Of a stretch of DNA of 50,048 nucleotides, positions 3,028 to 17,499 are shown piece after piece. Where the stretch lies: sequence record MH051918; one strand, written 5' to 3'. Each line of letters starts with the position of its first letter. Within the stretch, counting starts at the first letter, position 1. The translations under genes and the position numbers were made by a program. Origin of the DNA: Escherichia phage vB_EcoS_IME347. A model generated the notes under the pieces. The model made no database searches, was not told where the DNA came from, and saw nothing but the letters and a program-made list of their open reading frames with translations.

Positions 3028-3492
3028 ATGTTACGCAAAGAAGATATCACCTACCCAATCAGCTTCGTTAGCTTCGGAGTTGGCACCTTTACATTCACCA
3101 ACGAGAAAGGCGGCCACATGGTGTGCGCCAATGGCTACGAGCAACGCGAAATCGAATGCAGGGTGGGGGAATTTATAGAAAAAGCGAACAAGCACAACCC
3201 GGACAACGATCCTAAGCGTGACTACAACTACACGATGCCGGGCGCGGCGGCTGAGGTTAAGTCTGGTGAGTGCAGGGCTGAGTATATGCCAATCGGATCA
3301 ACTCTAACGGGCGTCCGCATGGATGATGGAGATTGGGCTGAACTGAGAATCACTCCTCGCCGGATTGAGGTTGATTCCGAGGTGATTACCTTCCTGCTGC
3401 ATGCGCACTACAGCACCAACACCAAGCAGTCACGTTTTGCCGGGGAAGTGAGCATGAAGCGCGATGCGATTGTTCGTTGGGAGAAGGCATAA
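3028..3492 (+). CDS. hypothetical early protein (154 aa)
   Basis: In-frame ATG at 3028 preceded by GAGAGGAAAG; the track ORF begins further upstream but without an ATG. Confidence 0.5.
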   Translation: MLRKEDITYPISFVSFGVGTFTFTNEKGGHMVCANGYEQREIECRVGEFIEKANKHNPDNDPKRDYNYTMPGAAAEVKSGECRAEYMPIGSTLTGVRMDDGDWAELRITPRRIEVDSEVITFLLHAHYSTNTKQSRFAGEVSMKRDAIVRWEKA

Positions 3493-13868: not shown

Positions 13869-14975
13869 ATGAAGGCAAAGCAAAGGTTCGACAGTGTAAA
13901 AATCAAGGCGCACTTTGATGAACATGGTTTCTTGGTTGACCGTCCGATCGTGGCGCGAATCGGCGCTCAAACGTACCGCACCCCGCATGGGGATCGAGTT
14001 GAGTTCCGCCCGGCCTCGGAGGTTTTCAAGGCTGAATCTCTGGAGACTTATGCGGGCAAGCCCGTAACTATCGGTCACGTAACCGTAAATCCAGACAATG
14101 CGGAAAGCGTGGTTGTGGGATCTTGCGCTGGCTCTGGAATCCCGTCCGGGATCGGGGTTGAGGTTCCAATGTCAATCTACAGCCAGCGAGCGATCGACAA
14201 AGCGAAGTCGAAGGCGGCGGCGGAAATCTCCGTGGGCTACACGTCCGAAGATATCGAAAAGCCGGGTTGGGGTTCCAATGAAACTGGCGAATACATCTTC
14301 GAAGAGGATATGAAGCAGGACGAAGCGCCCCCGGCTGGATGGGTTCACTTTGACGCCCTGCAAACGAACATCAAAGTTAATCACGTCGCGCTTGTGTTTA
14401 AAGGCCGTGCGGGAATCGCTAAATTGAACCTTGATAGCGAGCAGGAATTCCCGTATGATAACGACGTTGACACAAACAAAGAGGATAATGAAATGACTGT
14501 AAAAATTAAGATCGACTCCGCAGAAGTGGAAGTGACCAAGGATGTTGCCGCACACATCGAAAAGCTGAATGCTGAAATCGCAACTGTTCAGGGCAAGGCC
14601 GATGGTCTGGAAGCTGAACGCGATAACCTGAAAGAGAAGGTTGACGGCATCCCGGCGCAAATCGAAGCGGCTGTAGCTCAGGCGAAAGCTGACGCTGAAG
14701 CAATGACCGCGCTTATCGCTCTCGCCTCCGAAGCTGGCGTGAAGTGTGACGGTCTGGACGCTAAAGGAATCAAGGTAGCATTCATCAAAGAAACTACCGG
14801 GAAAGATGTTTCCACCAAATCAGACGCCTATATCGAAACAGCTTTCGACTTTGCGAAAGATTGTGATAACATGGCCTCACAGCGTCAAAGCATTAAAGGC
14901 GATGCCGCGAAAGAAAAAGAGGACGAAAAGCCGGAACTGACTCCGAACTCTCGCCTCGCTAAACTCAACAAGTAA
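13869..14975 (+). CDS. head scaffolding / prohead-protease-like protein (putative)
   Basis: Globular N-terminal domain followed by a long Ala/Glu/Lys-rich predicted coiled-coil C-terminal half; position between portal/morphogenesis genes and capsid genes. Confidence 0.45.
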   Translation: MKAKQRFDSVKIKAHFDEHGFLVDRPIVARIGAQTYRTPHGDRVEFRPASEVFKAESLETYAGKPVTIGHVTVNPDNAESVVVGSCAGSGIPSGIGVEVPMSIYSQRAIDKAKSKAAAEISVGYTSEDIEKPGWGSNETGEYIFEEDMKQDEAPPAGWVHFDALQTNIKVNHVALVFKGRAGIAKLNLDSEQEFPYDNDVDTNKEDNEMTVKIKIDSAEVEVTKDVAAHIEKLNAEIATVQGKADGLEAERDNLKEKVDGIPAQIEAAVAQAKADAEAMTALIALASEAGVKCDGLDAKGIKVAFIKETTGKDVSTKSDAYIETAFDFAKDCDNMASQRQSIKGDAAKEKEDEKPELTPNSRLAKLNK

Positions 14976-14987
14976 GGAGAAGAAATT

Positions 14988-15464
14988 ATGGCAATTGCAG
15001 CAAGCTATCAGAAAGATATGTCTATCGCCGTTCCGGGTATGGTGGCAGACACCTCCCGTTACAACATCGACGGCGCTTGCGTACTGAGCGGTGACGTTGA
15101 TATCCTCGTCGGCGTTGCGGTTCAGGTTGACAACGTTCAGGCCGTTGACGGTCACAAAGTCATGAAGCCTATGGCATCCGGCGGCAAGGCTTATGGTGTG
15201 GCGATTCGCTCCCACTTCCAGACTAAAGGCAAAGATGGTCAGATGTACTATGAAGCGGGCGGCGGCATTAACGTAATGACCTCCGGGCGCGTTTGGGTTA
15301 TCTCCAAAGATTCCACCGCTCCGGCGTTTGGTGAAACTGTCAACTTTGACGTTGACGGACAGCAGAAAGCAGACGGCGCGATCGAAACCGCATGGACTTA
15401 TGCGGGCGGCTTCACTACCTATCAGGATTTGAAGCTGGTTGAAATCCAATTGCATCAACTGTAA
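14988..15464 (+). CDS. capsid-associated protein, paralog 1 (decoration/cement-like, putative)
   Basis: RBS AAGGAG; shares YNIDGACV..GVAVQV..YGV..RS..GRVWV motifs with the next ORF. Confidence 0.5.
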   Translation: MAIAASYQKDMSIAVPGMVADTSRYNIDGACVLSGDVDILVGVAVQVDNVQAVDGHKVMKPMASGGKAYGVAIRSHFQTKGKDGQMYYEAGGGINVMTSGRVWVISKDSTAPAFGETVNFDVDGQQKADGAIETAWTYAGGFTTYQDLKLVEIQLHQL

Positions 15465-15473
15465 TAAGTAGCT

Positions 15474-15522
15474 AATATAGGGATTACCTTTTGGTAGTCC
15501 CTTTTTTATTGGAGGTAATAAA
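15474..15522 (+). promoter_or_regulatory. late leader module: TAATATAG + hairpin + UUUUUUAUU + GGAGG
   Basis: Hairpin gggattacc..ggtagtccc at 15480-15502, T run at 15503-15510, GGAGG at 15511-15515. Confidence 0.5.
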
Positions 15523-16017
15523 ATGTCTGATTATGGTAATTTGTCTTTGGGGGTTAGCTGTCCCGGCCTCCTGTCCGATACGTCGGACTATAATATCGAC
15601 GGCGCTTGTGTGGCTCGTGGGGAAATTCCTTTTGGTGTCGCTGTTCAGGTTGTCGAGATCGTGGATGGTGTCAAGGTTGTCTCCGCGCTGAGTGACGGCA
15701 AGCCGTATGGTGTGTCGATGCGATCGCAATACGAAAACTTGTCGGGCGTGGTTCAGGACGGCGAACCTGTGAGCGTTATCTCTCATGGTCGAGTTTGGGT
15801 TCGCACCTCTCTGGAGGATTCGCCCGCTTTCGGTGAGAAGTTATCCTTCGAATCTGGCGGAGAAGTATCTGAGGCCGGGGAGGCTGGCTGGCCTTTCGCT
15901 GGAGGTTTCGTTAAGTTTGGTGAGGGCTGGATTGTAGAGGTTCAGGTTTTGCAAAACCGATACTACATCCCACCTGAGCCGGAACCTGAACCAGAACAAG
16001 ACCCGGAAGAGCCGTAG
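15523..16017 (+). CDS. capsid-associated protein, paralog 2, with Pro/Glu-rich C-terminus ending at an amber codon
   Basis: Paralogous to 14988..15464; the C-terminal PEPEPEPEQDPEEP is followed by TAG and then 20 further in-frame Pro/Glu-rich codons up to TAA at 16078-16080. Confidence 0.5.
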   Translation: MSDYGNLSLGVSCPGLLSDTSDYNIDGACVARGEIPFGVAVQVVEIVDGVKVVSALSDGKPYGVSMRSQYENLSGVVQDGEPVSVISHGRVWVRTSLEDSPAFGEKLSFESGGEVSEAGEAGWPFAGGFVKFGEGWIVEVQVLQNRYYIPPEPEPEPEQDPEEP

Positions 16018-16100
16018 CCGGAAGATCCTGAACCGGAAGAGGGAGGCGAAACTGACCCGGAAGAAGGTTCAGAGGGTTAACACAAAAACAGTTTGACGCT

Positions 16101-16118
16101 TTAACAAAAAGTGCTATC
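16101..16118 (-). promoter_or_regulatory. intergenic motif copy (TTAACAAAAAGTGCTATC, reverse variant) upstream of the capsid gene
   Basis: Reverse complement matches the AATAGCACTTTTTGTTAA variant; followed by a hairpin plus T run at 16121-16147. Confidence 0.4.
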
Positions 16119-16167
16119 ATAAAGCCGTTATCACTTAACGGCTTTTTTCACAAAAGAGGATGTAAAC

Positions 16168-17145
16168 ATGACTAAGAAATATGACGAATTCGAAGCAACC
16201 GTAGTTGGCTCCCACCTGAAGATGCGCGGTGAAAAAGCCGATGCTGATACTCTCGGTATCTGGACTGCTCAGGAGCTTCACAAGCTGAAAAATCAGTCTT
16301 ACGAAAAAGACTATCCGGCAGGTTCCGCTCTGCGAGTATTCCCGGTAACTAACGATCTGTCCCCGGTTGATAAGACCTTCGAATATCAGACCTTTGATAA
16401 GGTTGGTATCGCGCAGATTATCACCGACTACACCGATGATCTTCCTCTGGTTGATGCTATGTCGTCCAGCGAGTTTGGCAAAGTTTTCCGCCTCGGTAAC
16501 GCATACCTGATTTCAATTGACGAAATCAAAGCAGGTCAAGCAACTGGCAAGTCGCTGTCTAATCGCAAGGTTAACGCCGCGCAACTGGCACACGATCAGT
16601 TAGTCAACCGCCTGGTGTTTAAAGGTTCTGTTCCTCACAAAATTGTGAGCGTGTTTAATCACCCGAACATTACCAAGATCACCTCCAAAGGCTGGACGTC
16701 AACCGCTGGTAGCGTAGTAACCAAAAACCCGGAAACCGCAGAAGAAGAACTGACGGCGGCTATTGAGTCGATCCAGACTCTGACGATGGGCGCACACCGT
16801 GCAACGCACATCCTGATCCCGCCGTCAATGCGCAAGGTTCTGACTGTTCGTATGCCTGACTCCACTGAAAGCTATCTGGATTACTTCATGAAGCAGAACG
16901 GCGGAATCACCATCGAATCAATCGCGGAACTGGAGGATATCGACGGCGCTGGCACGAAGGGTGCTCTGGTTTACGAGTACGACCCGATGAATATGTCCAT
17001 CGAAATTCCTGAAGCGTTCAACATGCTTCCTGCGCAGCCGAAAGACCTGCACTTCAAAGTGCCTTGCACCTCTAAGTGTACTGGTCTTACGATTTACCGC
17101 CCACTAACGATTGTCCTGATTACAGGACTTGCAGTAAGCGAGTAA
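16168..17145 (+). CDS. major capsid protein
   Basis: 325-aa ORF with AAGAGGA RBS in the canonical position after scaffold and accessory capsid genes. Confidence 0.7.
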   Translation: MTKKYDEFEATVVGSHLKMRGEKADADTLGIWTAQELHKLKNQSYEKDYPAGSALRVFPVTNDLSPVDKTFEYQTFDKVGIAQIITDYTDDLPLVDAMSSSEFGKVFRLGNAYLISIDEIKAGQATGKSLSNRKVNAAQLAHDQLVNRLVFKGSVPHKIVSVFNHPNITKITSKGWTSTAGSVVTKNPETAEEELTAAIESIQTLTMGAHRATHILIPPSMRKVLTVRMPDSTESYLDYFMKQNGGITIESIAELEDIDGAGTKGALVYEYDPMNMSIEIPEAFNMLPAQPKDLHFKVPCTSKCTGLTIYRPLTIVLITGLAVSE

Positions 17146-17153
17146 ATTGATTA

Positions 17154-17205
17154 CTATAGGGACTCATTAATTTGAGTCCCTTTTTTATTATCTGGAGAAA
17201 CCAAA
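17154..17205 (+). promoter_or_regulatory. late leader module: TACTATAG + hairpin + UUUUUUAUU + GGAG
   Basis: Hairpin gggactcattaatttgagtccc at 17158-17180 followed by a T run and RBS. Confidence 0.5.
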
Positions 17206-17499
17206 ATGGCTAAAGAACAAAAAACCAAAGCAACCGAAGAGCGCGTAGCGATTGTGAACGTCGGAACGGCGCTGATTTTCATCAACGGTGAAAAGCTGAT
17301 GCCGGATCAGGAAATTGAAATTGATGTGGCTCAACTGAAAACCTCCGGCGTTGAATACCTGTTCGGGCAGGGCGTGGTTATTGTCAAAGATAACTCCGCA
17401 TTAACCAATGAAGTGCGAGCACGAATTGAAGCGCGTCGCAAAGAAGATCCTACCGCTGGCAAGTCCCAAAAAGAACTTGAGGACGGCGGCGAGTTCTAA
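17206..17499 (+). CDS. hypothetical head-associated protein (97 aa)
   Basis: ORF directly after the capsid gene. Confidence 0.45.
   Translation: MAKEQKTKATEERVAIVNVGTALIFINGEKLMPDQEIEIDVAQLKTSGVEYLFGQGVVIVKDNSALTNEVRARIEARRKEDPTAGKSQKELEDGGEF

What the first reader, a model, noticed from the sequence alone, without database searches (positions are those of the whole stretch)
14988..16017. Tandem paralogous capsid-associated genes upstream of the major capsid gene
Proteins from 14988..15464 and 15523..16017 share colinear motifs (YNIDGACV, GVAVQV, YGV..RS, GRVWV), indicating a tandem duplication. The second copy has acquired an acidic Pro/Glu-repeat tail. Two diverged copies next to the capsid gene suggest sub-functionalised decoration or cement proteins.
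Basis: seen in the sequence. Interest (0 to 1): 0.45.

Follow-up and report, generated by a model that had tools for sequence, protein, structure and literature searches.

The report
Two paralogous capsid cement proteins
These two neighbouring genes are this T1-like phage's versions of the two related capsid "cement" proteins whose structure on the phage T1 head was solved in 2025, so the pair is ordinary; the only unusual point is that the second protein carries a short acidic tail, cut by an early stop codon, where T1 has an antibody-like surface domain.

Summary

Both proteins belong to Pfam Phage_cement (PF22758). ORF1 is the orthologue of phage T1 gp49 and ORF2 of T1 gp48. Cryo-EM of T1 and FCWL1 (PDB 9KZJ, 9KMG, 9KMH; PMC11945409) shows 80 gp49 homotrimers and 60 gp48:gp49x2 heterotrimers on the T=7 capsid.

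The duplication is ancient, not local. Copy-1 and copy-2 proteins separate with 100% bootstrap across Drexlerviridae subfamilies.

What differs here:
- ORF2 has no C-terminal Big_2 (Ig-like) domain, only a disordered acidic Pro/Glu tail.
- Its TAG stop lies inside that tail. Twenty more acidic codons follow in frame, up to a TAA that aligns with the stop codon of the closest relatives.
- ORF2 is a mosaic cassette: about 46% identical to Sertoctavirus copy 2, while the flanking genes are about 90% identical.
- A terminator hairpin between the copies is conserved in structure, and a promoter-like site follows ORF2. This fits the 6:1 stoichiometry seen in T1.

The ORF2 core is under purifying selection (dN/dS 0.05). 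Interest is low.

The parts
14974..14979 (+). Shine-Dalgarno-like AAGGAG for ORF1, overlapping the TAA stop of the prohead protease gene
   Evidence: Read directly from the sequence. The protease ORF 13869-14975 is PHROG head maturation protease, E=1e-106.
14988..15464 (+). ORF1, 158 aa: major cement protein, orthologue of T1 gp49 / FCWL1 'cement protein II'
   Evidence: Pfam PF22758 at 100 bits. PDB 9KMG_a E=1.8e-66 over residues 3-158. 66.5% identical to T1 gp49 and about 90% to Sertoctavirus copy 1. Falls in the copy-1 clade with 100% bootstrap.
15479..15508 (+). Intrinsic-terminator-like hairpin (10-bp stem, 4-nt loop) plus T-run, between the two paralogues
   Evidence: Flagged by the terminator scan. 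RNA fold -18.9 kcal/mol, z=-3.3. A hairpin at this position is present in T1, BrunoManser, L005, Stevie and SECphi27 with different stem sequences. It is annotated as a rho-independent terminator in T1 AY216660 and in Stevie.
15511..15515 (+). Shine-Dalgarno-like GGAGG for ORF2
   Evidence: Read directly from the sequence; conserved in relatives.
15523..15960 (+). ORF2 cement (beta-tulip) domain, residues 1-146: orthologue of the N-terminal domain of T1 gp48 / FCWL1 gp29
   Evidence: Pfam PF22758 at 83 bits. PDB 9KZJ_H E=7.7e-58. AF2 model pLDDT 86, and the Foldseek top hits are 9KZJ_H and 9KMH_ak with TM 0.80-0.90. dN/dS 0.047 against relative L005.
15961..16014 (+). ORF2 C-terminal tail, residues 147-164 (YYIPPEPEPEPEQDPEEP): acidic Pro/Glu low-complexity segment in place of the linker and Big_2 domain of T1 gp48
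   Evidence: Translation. Short tandem repeats of period 12 and 15. AF2 pLDDT 62-69 with no secondary structure. Relatives P0001, P0002 and P0017 have similar short acidic tails.
16015..16017 (+). In-frame TAG stop inside the acidic tail, premature relative to the stop of the relatives
   Evidence: Alignment A1 places the relatives' stop at window 16078-16080. TAG is otherwise an ordinary stop in this genome (9 of 66 crude ORFs), and the window has no tRNA gene.
16018..16080 (+). Twenty further in-frame acidic codons (PEDPEPEEGGETDPEEGSEG) plus TAA: the now untranslated, or read-through-only, end of the tail
   Evidence: Translation. The TAA and the sequence after it align with the stop codon and downstream region of L003, L004 and L005, where the downstream columns are identical in all four.
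16093..16120 (+). Sigma-70-like promoter (TTGACG, 16 nt, TG-n-TATCAT) between ORF2 and the major capsid gene
   Evidence: Promoter scan, 10 of 12 matches with an extended -10 TG. Invariant in relatives L003-L005. A promoter is annotated at the equivalent place in T1.
16122..16150 (+). Hairpin (9-bp stem) plus U-run immediately downstream of the promoter and upstream of the capsid-gene ribosome-binding site
   Evidence: RNA fold -13.4 kcal/mol, z=-4.1. Invariant in relatives. Annotated as a terminator in T1.
16168..17145 (+). Major capsid protein (HK97 fold family), the binding partner of the cement trimers
   Evidence: Pfam PF09950 E=5e-57. PHROG major head protein E=3e-100. 79% identical to T1 gp47.

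Best explanation
The window is a T1-like siphophage (Drexlerviridae; nearest named genus Sertoctavirus). ORF1 and ORF2 are its orthologues of the two capsid cement proteins of phage T1, gp49 and gp48. By homology with the solved T1 and FCWL1 capsids, the model is as follows. ORF1 forms beta-tulip homotrimers that clamp the three-fold and quasi-three-fold junctions between capsomers of the T=7 shell (80 trimers). At the remaining 60 quasi-three-fold sites, one ORF2 subunit replaces one ORF1 subunit to give a 1:2 heterotrimer. From T=7 geometry I infer that these 60 sites are the penton-adjacent ones. That makes about 360 copies of ORF1 and 60 of ORF2 per head. ORF2's C-terminus points outwards and serves across the family as a platform for a variable display module: none, one or two Big_2 Ig-like domains, or other domains. 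In this phage the module is reduced to a disordered, strongly acidic Pro/Glu tail, itself shortened by an in-frame amber codon that is most simply a recent GAG-to-TAG change. The gene layout fits the 6:1 stoichiometry: a conserved intrinsic-terminator hairpin after ORF1 would lower transcription into ORF2, and a promoter after ORF2 would restore high expression of the capsid gene. Shown here: homology, orthology, fold, domain content, selection, mosaicism and the conserved hairpin. Inferred: capsid positions, heterotrimer formation, what the regulatory elements do, and what the tail does.
For: Paralogy: 40% identity, E=3e-33. Family: both hit PF22758 Phage_cement at 100 and 83 bits against a cut-off of 27. 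Orthology to solved chains: ORF1 against 9KMG E=1.8e-66, ORF2 against 9KZJ/9KMH E about 1e-57, with cross-matches of only 1e-23 to 1e-27. Fold: the AF2 model (pLDDT 86) has T1 gp48 and FCWL1 gp29 as best Foldseek hits at TM 0.80-0.90, then gp49-type chains, then Pam3, XM1 and the phi29 head-fibre base. Published architecture: 80 gp49 homotrimers and 60 gp48:gp49x2 heterotrimers, with the gp48 C-terminus protruding (PMC11945409). Synteny: portal, MuF-like, protease, copy 1, terminator, copy 2, promoter, MCP, as annotated in T1. Ancient duplication: copy-1 and copy-2 proteins separate with 100% bootstrap across Tunavirinae and Tempevirinae. ORF2 is functional: core dN/dS is 0.047, similar to MCP at 0.045. 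Domain-less copy 2 also occurs in relatives L003-L005 and in Tlsvirus Stevie at 146 aa. The C-terminal module varies among homologues. The terminator hairpin is kept in structure with divergent sequence.
Against: No virion data exist for this phage. Capsid location, heterotrimer formation and copy numbers are carried over from T1, whose copy 2 is 64% identical. Terminator and promoter are consensus or energy predictions only; a hairpin with a U-run directly after the promoter (16122-16150) complicates the simple attenuation and re-initiation model. All three genes have strong Shine-Dalgarno sites, so translation may also set the ratios. The T1 paper does not state in words that the heterotrimers are penton-adjacent; that is my inference from 60 sites, from two of six trimers per hexon, and from five gp29 chains in the portal-vertex model 9KMH. 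The GAG-to-TAG origin of the amber codon rests on an internal repeat alignment that is not significant (127 of 2000 codon shuffles score as well).
Confidence: 0.85

Rival explanations
1. ORF2 is a decaying remnant. After losing its Big_2 domain and then gaining a premature stop, it is on the way to becoming a pseudogene, and ORF1 alone cements the capsid, as in single-copy Drexlerviridae such as Webervirus and Guelphvirus.
For: The Big_2 domain is missing and no Big_2 homologue exists elsewhere in the window. The in-frame TAG lies 21 codons before the ancestral stop. Single-copy relatives exist.
Against: The core of ORF2 shows strong purifying selection against relative L005 (dN/dS 0.047, dS 1.1). 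It keeps an intact start codon and a strong ribosome-binding site. The domain-less form is kept in at least three independent contigs and in Tlsvirus. The stop removes only disordered tail, beyond the part of T1 gp48 that was modelled on the capsid (residues 2-153).
Confidence: 0.07
2. The TAG at 16015 is a leaky or suppressible stop. Read-through, favoured by a Pro-UAG-C context or by amber-suppressor hosts, yields a minor 185-aa isoform with a longer acidic tail, so each capsid carries two tail lengths.
For: The 20 codons after TAG stay in frame, keep the same Pro/Glu/Asp composition and end exactly at the relatives' stop codon. From my own knowledge, not tested here: a C-terminal proline and a C after UAG are poor termination contexts in E. 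coli.
Against: No relative has the TAG or the 60-nt tail expansion, so conservation cannot be shown. An open 20-codon stretch is expected by chance about 38% of the time. The window encodes no suppressor tRNA. TAG is an ordinary stop for about 14% of ORFs. A recent point mutation or an assembly error explains the data more simply.
Confidence: 0.06
3. The pair arose by a recent tandem duplication within this genome, or ORF2 is a scaffolding protein, as some GenBank records label its homologues.
For: The genes are adjacent and share 40% identity. Homologues of copy 2 are labelled 'scaffolding protein' in SECphi27 and PHB07.
Against: Each copy has a closer orthologue in T1 (66% and 64%) than its own paralogue (about 43%), and the tree separates the copies with 100% bootstrap. 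T1 gp48 is seen on the mature capsid. The scaffold function is assigned to the C-terminal half of the protease/scaffold protein upstream (PHROG 530).
Confidence: 0.02

Closest known systems
Phage T1 cement proteins gp49 and gp48 (CPTT1_029 / CPTT1_030; PDB 9KZJ; PMC11945409)
   Same: Same position between protease and major capsid gene, same order, and a terminator hairpin between the two genes with a promoter after the second. ORF1 is 66.5% identical to gp49 and both are 158 aa. The ORF2 core is 63.8% identical to gp48 residues 1-152. The beta-tulip fold is recovered by AF2 and Foldseek.
   Different: T1 gp48 is 255 aa, with a poly-Pro linker and a Big_2 Ig-like domain that protrudes from the capsid. 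ORF2 is 164 aa with an acidic Pro/Glu tail and no Big_2. The ORF2 tail contains an in-frame amber codon.
Phage FCWL1 'cement protein II' and 'decoration protein gp29' (PDB 9KMG, 9KMH)
   Same: Best sequence match for ORF1 (E=1.8e-66) and near-best for ORF2 (E=4.7e-56). Best rmsd for the ORF2 model: 2.1 A, TM 0.83/0.90.
   Different: FCWL1 gp29 is 255 aa. The table does not say which domain its C-terminal ~100 residues form; the 255-aa T1 counterpart 9KZJ_H is the chain deposited as 'BIG2 domain-containing protein'.
Tlsvirus pair (Citrobacter phage Stevie gp06/gp07; TLS Gp34 decoration protein, PMC11447400)
   Same: Two adjacent paralogues with an annotated terminator between them, and copy 2 has no C-terminal domain (146 aa). 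This shows that a domain-less copy 2 is a normal state in the family.
   Different: Only about 35% identical to ORF2. It has no acidic tail at all and ends right after the cement domain.
Sertoctavirus (SRT8, BrunoManser, IME-JL8), the nearest named phages
   Same: About 78-80% nucleotide identity over the structural module. Copy 1 is about 90% and MCP about 91% identical at protein level.
   Different: Their copy 2 is 260 aa with insertions in the cement domain and a Big_2 domain. It is only 46-48% identical to ORF2, less than T1's copy 2 is. Nucleotide identity falls to about 50% across 15600-16030.
Pfam PF22758 Phage_cement (E217 gp24 / Pam3 gp6) and PF23982 (XM1 gp53 minor capsid protein); phi29 head-fibre gp8.5 base
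   Same: Both ORFs score above the gathering threshold for both Pfam families. The ORF2 model matches Pam3 8HDT_G, XM1 7KMX_a and phi29 6QYY at TM 0.5-0.6. The phi29 gp8.5 base also carries an outward fibre.
   Different: Sequence identity is only 12-23%. These are single-gene systems in unrelated myo- and podophages.

Membership tests
Pfam PF22758 Phage_cement (E217 gp24 / Pam3 gp6) | Whole-protein HMM score above the curated gathering threshold (27 bits), covering the profile | tested here: met
   ORF1 scores 100 bits over profile positions 3-145 of 146. ORF2 scores 82.9 bits over positions 9-144 of 146.
Drexlerviridae two-cement system (T1 gp49 + gp48) | Two adjacent paralogous cement genes between the prohead protease and the major capsid gene | tested here: met
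   Gene order is protease 13869-14975, ORF1, ORF2, MCP 16168-17145. T1 has the same order.
Drexlerviridae two-cement system (T1 gp49 + gp48) | Copy 1 orthologous to gp49 and copy 2 orthologous to gp48 (reciprocal best relationships) | tested here: met
   PDB searches give E=1.8e-66 and 7.7e-58 for orthologues, against 1e-23 to 1e-27 for cross-paralogues. The NJ tree split has 100% bootstrap.
Drexlerviridae two-cement system (T1 gp49 + gp48) | Beta-tulip fold of the cement domain | tested here: met
   The AF2 model of ORF2 (pLDDT 86, pTM 0.80) superposes on 9KZJ_H and 9KMH_ak at TM 0.80-0.90. ORF1 was not modelled, but aligns without large gaps to the solved chain 9KMG_a.
Drexlerviridae two-cement system (T1 gp49 + gp48) | C-terminal Big_2 (Ig-like) domain on copy 2, as in T1 gp48 and FCWL1 gp29 | tested here: not met
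   ORF2 has no PF02368 hit. There is no space for such a domain before the MCP gene, and tblastn finds no Big_2 homologue anywhere in the window. The feature is not universal in the family: Stevie copy 2 (146 aa) lacks it too.
Drexlerviridae two-cement system (T1 gp49 + gp48) | Assembly as 80 copy-1 homotrimers and 60 (copy 2):(copy 1)x2 heterotrimers on a T=7 capsid | not testable with these tools
   Known only from cryo-EM of T1. It would need virion cryo-EM or mass spectrometry, or at least multimer modelling, for this phage.
Drexlerviridae two-cement system (T1 gp49 + gp48) | Intrinsic terminator between the two paralogues and a promoter before the capsid gene (as annotated in T1) | tested here: inconclusive
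   A hairpin plus T-run and a sigma-70-like site are present and conserved. These are sequence predictions; their activity was not measured.
Lambda gpD / TW1 gp56 type trimeric beta-tulip decoration proteins | Direct structural similarity to gpD or gp56 | not tested
   The T1 paper calls the folds analogous. Neither protein appears among the 50 Foldseek hits listed, and I ran no dedicated comparison.

The most novel reading that the evidence does not exclude
Copy 2 is a swappable capsid-surface display cassette, bounded by a conserved terminator hairpin with the first ~20 codons on one side and a conserved promoter on the other. In this phage the allele is an acidic Pro/Glu 'bristle' whose length is set by a leaky or suppressor-dependent amber codon. 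Capsids would then carry a charge-based surface module, in two lengths, in place of the usual Ig-like adhesion domain at 60 sites that I infer to be penton-adjacent.
Probability: 0.07. Interest if true: 0.45.

Novelty: new member of a known kind. Interest (0 to 1): 0.17.

Why it matters
It matters little for discovery. The two-paralogue cement system of T1-like phages has been structurally described since 2025, and this window contains another example of it.

It has modest value in three ways:
- It allows annotation to be corrected. Most GenBank homologues are labelled 'hypothetical protein', 'scaffolding protein' or worse.
- It shows that the copy-2 subunit tolerates complete loss of its Ig-like display domain while its core stays under strong selection. 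The structural role and the display role are therefore separable.
- It shows that copy 2 is a mosaic, fast-exchanging cassette with a free outward C-terminus. That makes it a candidate site for phage-display or capsid engineering at about 60 copies per head.

Tried and rejected
1. Searching public collections for the tail DNA (GAAGAGCCGNAGCCGGAAGA) to find a relative with a sense codon at the TAG. The pattern was too low in complexity: 22 viral and at least 120 metagenome hits. A tblastn check of the 142 fetched loci found a cement gene only in the window's own contig.

2. A viral-contig scan with the ORF2 protein returned only the window itself (IMGVR_UViG_2974601010_000001) and SRT8.

3. Internal duplication of the tail, aligning the pre-TAG unit with the post-TAG unit so that GAG matches TAG. 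The alignment looks suggestive, but 127 of 2000 codon shuffles score as well, so it is not significant.

4. Amber reassignment or a phage-encoded suppressor. Rejected: the window has no tRNA genes, and TAG ends 9 of 66 crude ORFs.

5. Big_2 domain relocated elsewhere in the genome. Rejected: no significant tblastn hit.

6. Antisense ORFs overlapping the locus (14877-15458, 15484-15786 and 15911-16120, minus strand). None has a PHROG match, and I treat them as spurious.

7. Recent local duplication. Rejected by the tree and by the identity pattern.

Full report
**Checking the observation.** The window has two + strand ORFs at exactly the stated coordinates: 14988-15464 (158 aa) and 15523-16017 (164 aa). 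Each is preceded by a strong Shine-Dalgarno-like sequence. BLASTP of the two products gives 40% identity over 150 columns with E=3e-33. The motifs YNIDGACV, GVAVQV, YGV..RS and GRVWV occur in the same order in both. The window holds no third copy. ORF2 ends in PPEPEPEPEQDPEEP.

**Genomic context.**
- The window is the 50,048-bp contig IMGVR_UViG_2974601010_000001.
- It carries a T1-like (Drexlerviridae) structural module: portal (PF06381), Mu-F-like head protein, prohead protease/scaffold (PHROG 530), ORF1, ORF2, major capsid protein (PF09950) and DUF7444.
- The nearest named phages are Sertoctavirus SRT8, BrunoManser and IME-JL8, at about 78-80% nucleotide identity over just over half of the first 25 kb.
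- Closer unnamed relatives exist in Logan assemblies, loci L003-L005.

**What the two proteins are.**
- Both score well above threshold for Pfam PF22758 'Structural cement protein (E217 gp24/Pam3 gp6)' and for PF23982.
- ORF1 matches the 158-aa 'Decoration protein / cement protein II' chain of PDB 9KMG, 9KMH and 9KZJ at E=1.8e-66.
- ORF2 matches the 255-aa 'BIG2 domain-containing protein' (9KZJ_H, phage T1) and 'Decoration protein gp29' (9KMH, phage FCWL1) at E about 1e-57. The match covers ORF2 residues 4-155.
- Cross-paralogue matches are much weaker, 1e-23 to 1e-27.
- An AlphaFold2 model of ORF2 built on a 38-sequence alignment has pLDDT 86 and pTM 0.80. Its last ~20 residues have low confidence and no secondary structure.
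- Foldseek against the PDB returns T1 9KZJ_H and FCWL1 9KMH_ak first (TM 0.80-0.90, 63% identity). The gp49-type chains follow, then Pam3, XM1, Borrelia BB1, HFTV1 and the phi29 head-fibre base.

**What is already published.** The T1 cryo-EM paper (PMC11945409) reports:
- 415 copies of MCP gp47 in a T=7 shell.
- 80 gp49 homotrimers and 60 heterotrimers of one gp48 and two gp49, on the three-fold and quasi-three-fold axes.
- Both proteins have the beta-tulip fold.
- The extended N-terminus of gp49 inserts into the inner surface of the shell, whereas gp48 only sits on the outside.
- The gp48 C-terminal part (residues 154-255) gives weak protruding density. The authors suggest it helps adsorption.

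The re-annotated T1 record AY216660 already names the genes 'capsid decoration protein' and 'IgG-domain-containing decoration protein'. It places a rho-independent terminator between them and a promoter plus terminator before the capsid gene.

**Age of the duplication.**
- ORF1 is 66.5% identical to T1 gp49, and ORF2 is 63.8% identical to T1 gp48. The two paralogues within any one phage are only 38-46% identical.
- I built a neighbour-joining tree of cement domains from the window, L005, BrunoManser, T1, Stevie (Tlsvirus), SECphi27 (Warwickvirus), Motto, and the single-copy phages ACG-M12 (Guelphvirus) and KP1801 (Webervirus).
- All copy-1 and single-copy proteins fall on one side of a split with 100% bootstrap, and all copy-2 proteins on the other.
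- The duplication therefore predates the Tunavirinae/Tempevirinae divergence. It is not an event in this genome.
- Copy-2 branches are much longer than copy-1 branches.

**What differs in this window.**

*1. No Big_2 domain.*
- ORF2 has no PF02368 hit.
- Only 150 nt separate its stop from the capsid gene.
- tblastn with the T1 and BrunoManser C-terminal domains finds nothing significant anywhere in the window.
- In T1 the sequence after the cement domain reads QNAFIVPPPPPPVVLVE..., followed by the Big_2 domain (per Pfam). Here it reads QNRYYIPPEPEPEPEQDPEEP.
- The acidic tail thus begins where the homologous Pro-rich linker begins.
- Big_2-bearing homologues also end in short Pro/Glu-rich segments: T1 ...VPTPEVDV, SRT8 ...TEAPPEP, SECphi27 ...VDPEPGP.
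- I infer, without a test, that an in-frame deletion between the two Pro-rich segments flanking the Ig domain would produce such a tail.

*2. The C-terminal module is variable across the family.* Among homologues found in 1.8 billion representative proteins, copy-2-type proteins carry:
- no extra domain (146-171 aa, including Stevie gp07/P0038);
- short acidic tails (P0001, P0002, P0017);
- one Big_2 domain (about 255-270 aa);
- two Big_2 domains (P0023, P0027);
- a cadherin/Big_9-like domain (P0035);
- an unassigned ~170-aa domain (P0055).

The window's allele is one state in a known range.

*3. The TAG is premature.*
- Alignment with L003-L005 shows that their stop codon, and the conserved promoter region that follows it, align with the window's TAA at 16078-16080.
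- The window has about 60 extra nucleotides of tail, and the TAG at 16015-16017 lies within them.
- The 20 codons after the TAG stay in frame and stay acidic and Pro-rich.
- TAG is an ordinary stop codon here, ending 9 of 66 crude ORFs, and the window encodes no tRNA.
- The simplest reading is a recent nonsense mutation, or a sequencing error, in a dispensable disordered tail. Leaky read-through cannot be excluded but has no positive support.

*4. ORF2 is not a pseudogene.* Against L005 its core has dN/dS 0.047 at dS 1.1. This compares with copy 1 at 0.07, MCP at 0.045 and the protease at 0.052.

*5. ORF2 is a mosaic cassette.*
- Copy 1 and MCP are about 90% identical to Sertoctavirus, but ORF2 is only 46-48% identical to Sertoctavirus copy 2 and 64% to T1 copy 2.
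- The trees disagree. For copy 1 the grouping is (window, L005, BrunoManser) against T1. For copy 2 it is (window, L005, T1) against BrunoManser. Each has 100% bootstrap.
- Sliding nucleotide identity to BrunoManser is about 85% through ORF1, falls to about 50% between about 15600 and 16030, and returns to 86% at the promoter.

**Regulatory layout.**
- Between the paralogues lies a 10-bp hairpin followed by a T-run (15479-15508). It folds at -18.9 kcal/mol with z=-3.3.
- A hairpin occupies the same position in T1, BrunoManser, L005, Stevie and SECphi27, with different stem sequences. The structure is conserved rather than the sequence.
- After ORF2 there is a sigma-70-like promoter (16093-16120, 10 of 12 matches with an extended -10). 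Directly after it comes a second hairpin with a U-run (16122-16150). Both are invariant among the close relatives.
- My inference is that partial termination after ORF1 lowers ORF2 expression towards the 6:1 ratio seen in T1, and that the promoter restores high expression of the capsid gene.
- The predicted transcription start would fall inside the 5' arm of the second hairpin. That hairpin could then terminate only transcripts arriving from upstream. None of this is tested.

**Comparison and verdict.**
- The locus passes the membership tests for Pfam Phage_cement and for the T1-type two-cement system on synteny, orthology and fold.
- It fails only the Big_2 criterion, which other family members such as Tlsvirus also lack.
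- Heterotrimer assembly and copy number cannot be tested with these tools.
- The finding is real and correctly interpreted, but it is a new member of a published system with a minor allelic peculiarity. Interest is low.

Noticed in passing
window 16015-16080: The TAG stop of ORF2 lies inside its acidic tail. Twenty more in-frame Pro/Glu/Asp-rich codons follow, up to a TAA that aligns with the stop codon of the closest relatives. This looks like a recent nonsense mutation, an assembly error, or a leaky stop.
   Followed up: partly
window 15479-15508; also L006 1580-1612, L011 1464-1481, L001 ~3181-3206, L012 ~1450-1475: A terminator-like hairpin between the two cement paralogues is kept at the same position across Tunavirinae and Tempevirinae. 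The stem sequences are unrelated, so the structure is conserved rather than the sequence.
   Followed up: partly
window 16093-16150: A strong sigma-70-like promoter is followed directly by a 9-bp hairpin with a U-run, just upstream of the capsid-gene ribosome-binding site. Both are invariant in relatives. The predicted transcription start falls inside the hairpin's 5' arm, so the hairpin might stop only transcripts coming from upstream.
   Followed up: no
window ~15600-16030 compared with L001 (BrunoManser): Nucleotide identity to Sertoctavirus drops from about 85% to about 50% precisely over the body of ORF2 and recovers at the promoter. ORF2 is closer to T1's copy 2 than to Sertoctavirus's, while the flanking genes show the opposite. 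This is a mosaic cassette.
   Followed up: yes
window 17158-17189: The hairpin after the major capsid gene (AGGGACTCA...TGAGTCCCT TTTTTATT) shares its stem ends and T-rich tail with the hairpin after ORF1 (AGGGATTACC...GGTAGTCCCT TTTTTATT). This suggests a reused terminator motif in the late operon.
   Followed up: no
window 17206-17499: A conserved 97-aa gene of unknown function (Pfam DUF7444, PHROG 2716) lies directly after the capsid gene, as in T1 (orf 46) and the other relatives.
   Followed up: no
public records hit: Copy-2 homologues are annotated inconsistently in GenBank: mostly 'hypothetical protein', but also 'scaffolding protein', and copy 1 appears as 'HtjA'. One hit row lists 'putative zonula occludens toxin' next to the Ig-domain protein. 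About 20 records named 'Campylobacter phage' carry this E. coli-type T1-like module.
   Followed up: no
P0011 and P0015: Two T1-type copy-2 homologues look frameshifted or truncated within or after the linker (181 aa ending ...EALNQTMLRSSV; 254 aa with a scrambled C-terminus). Damage to the display domain of copy 2 therefore appears to recur in sequence databases.
   Followed up: no
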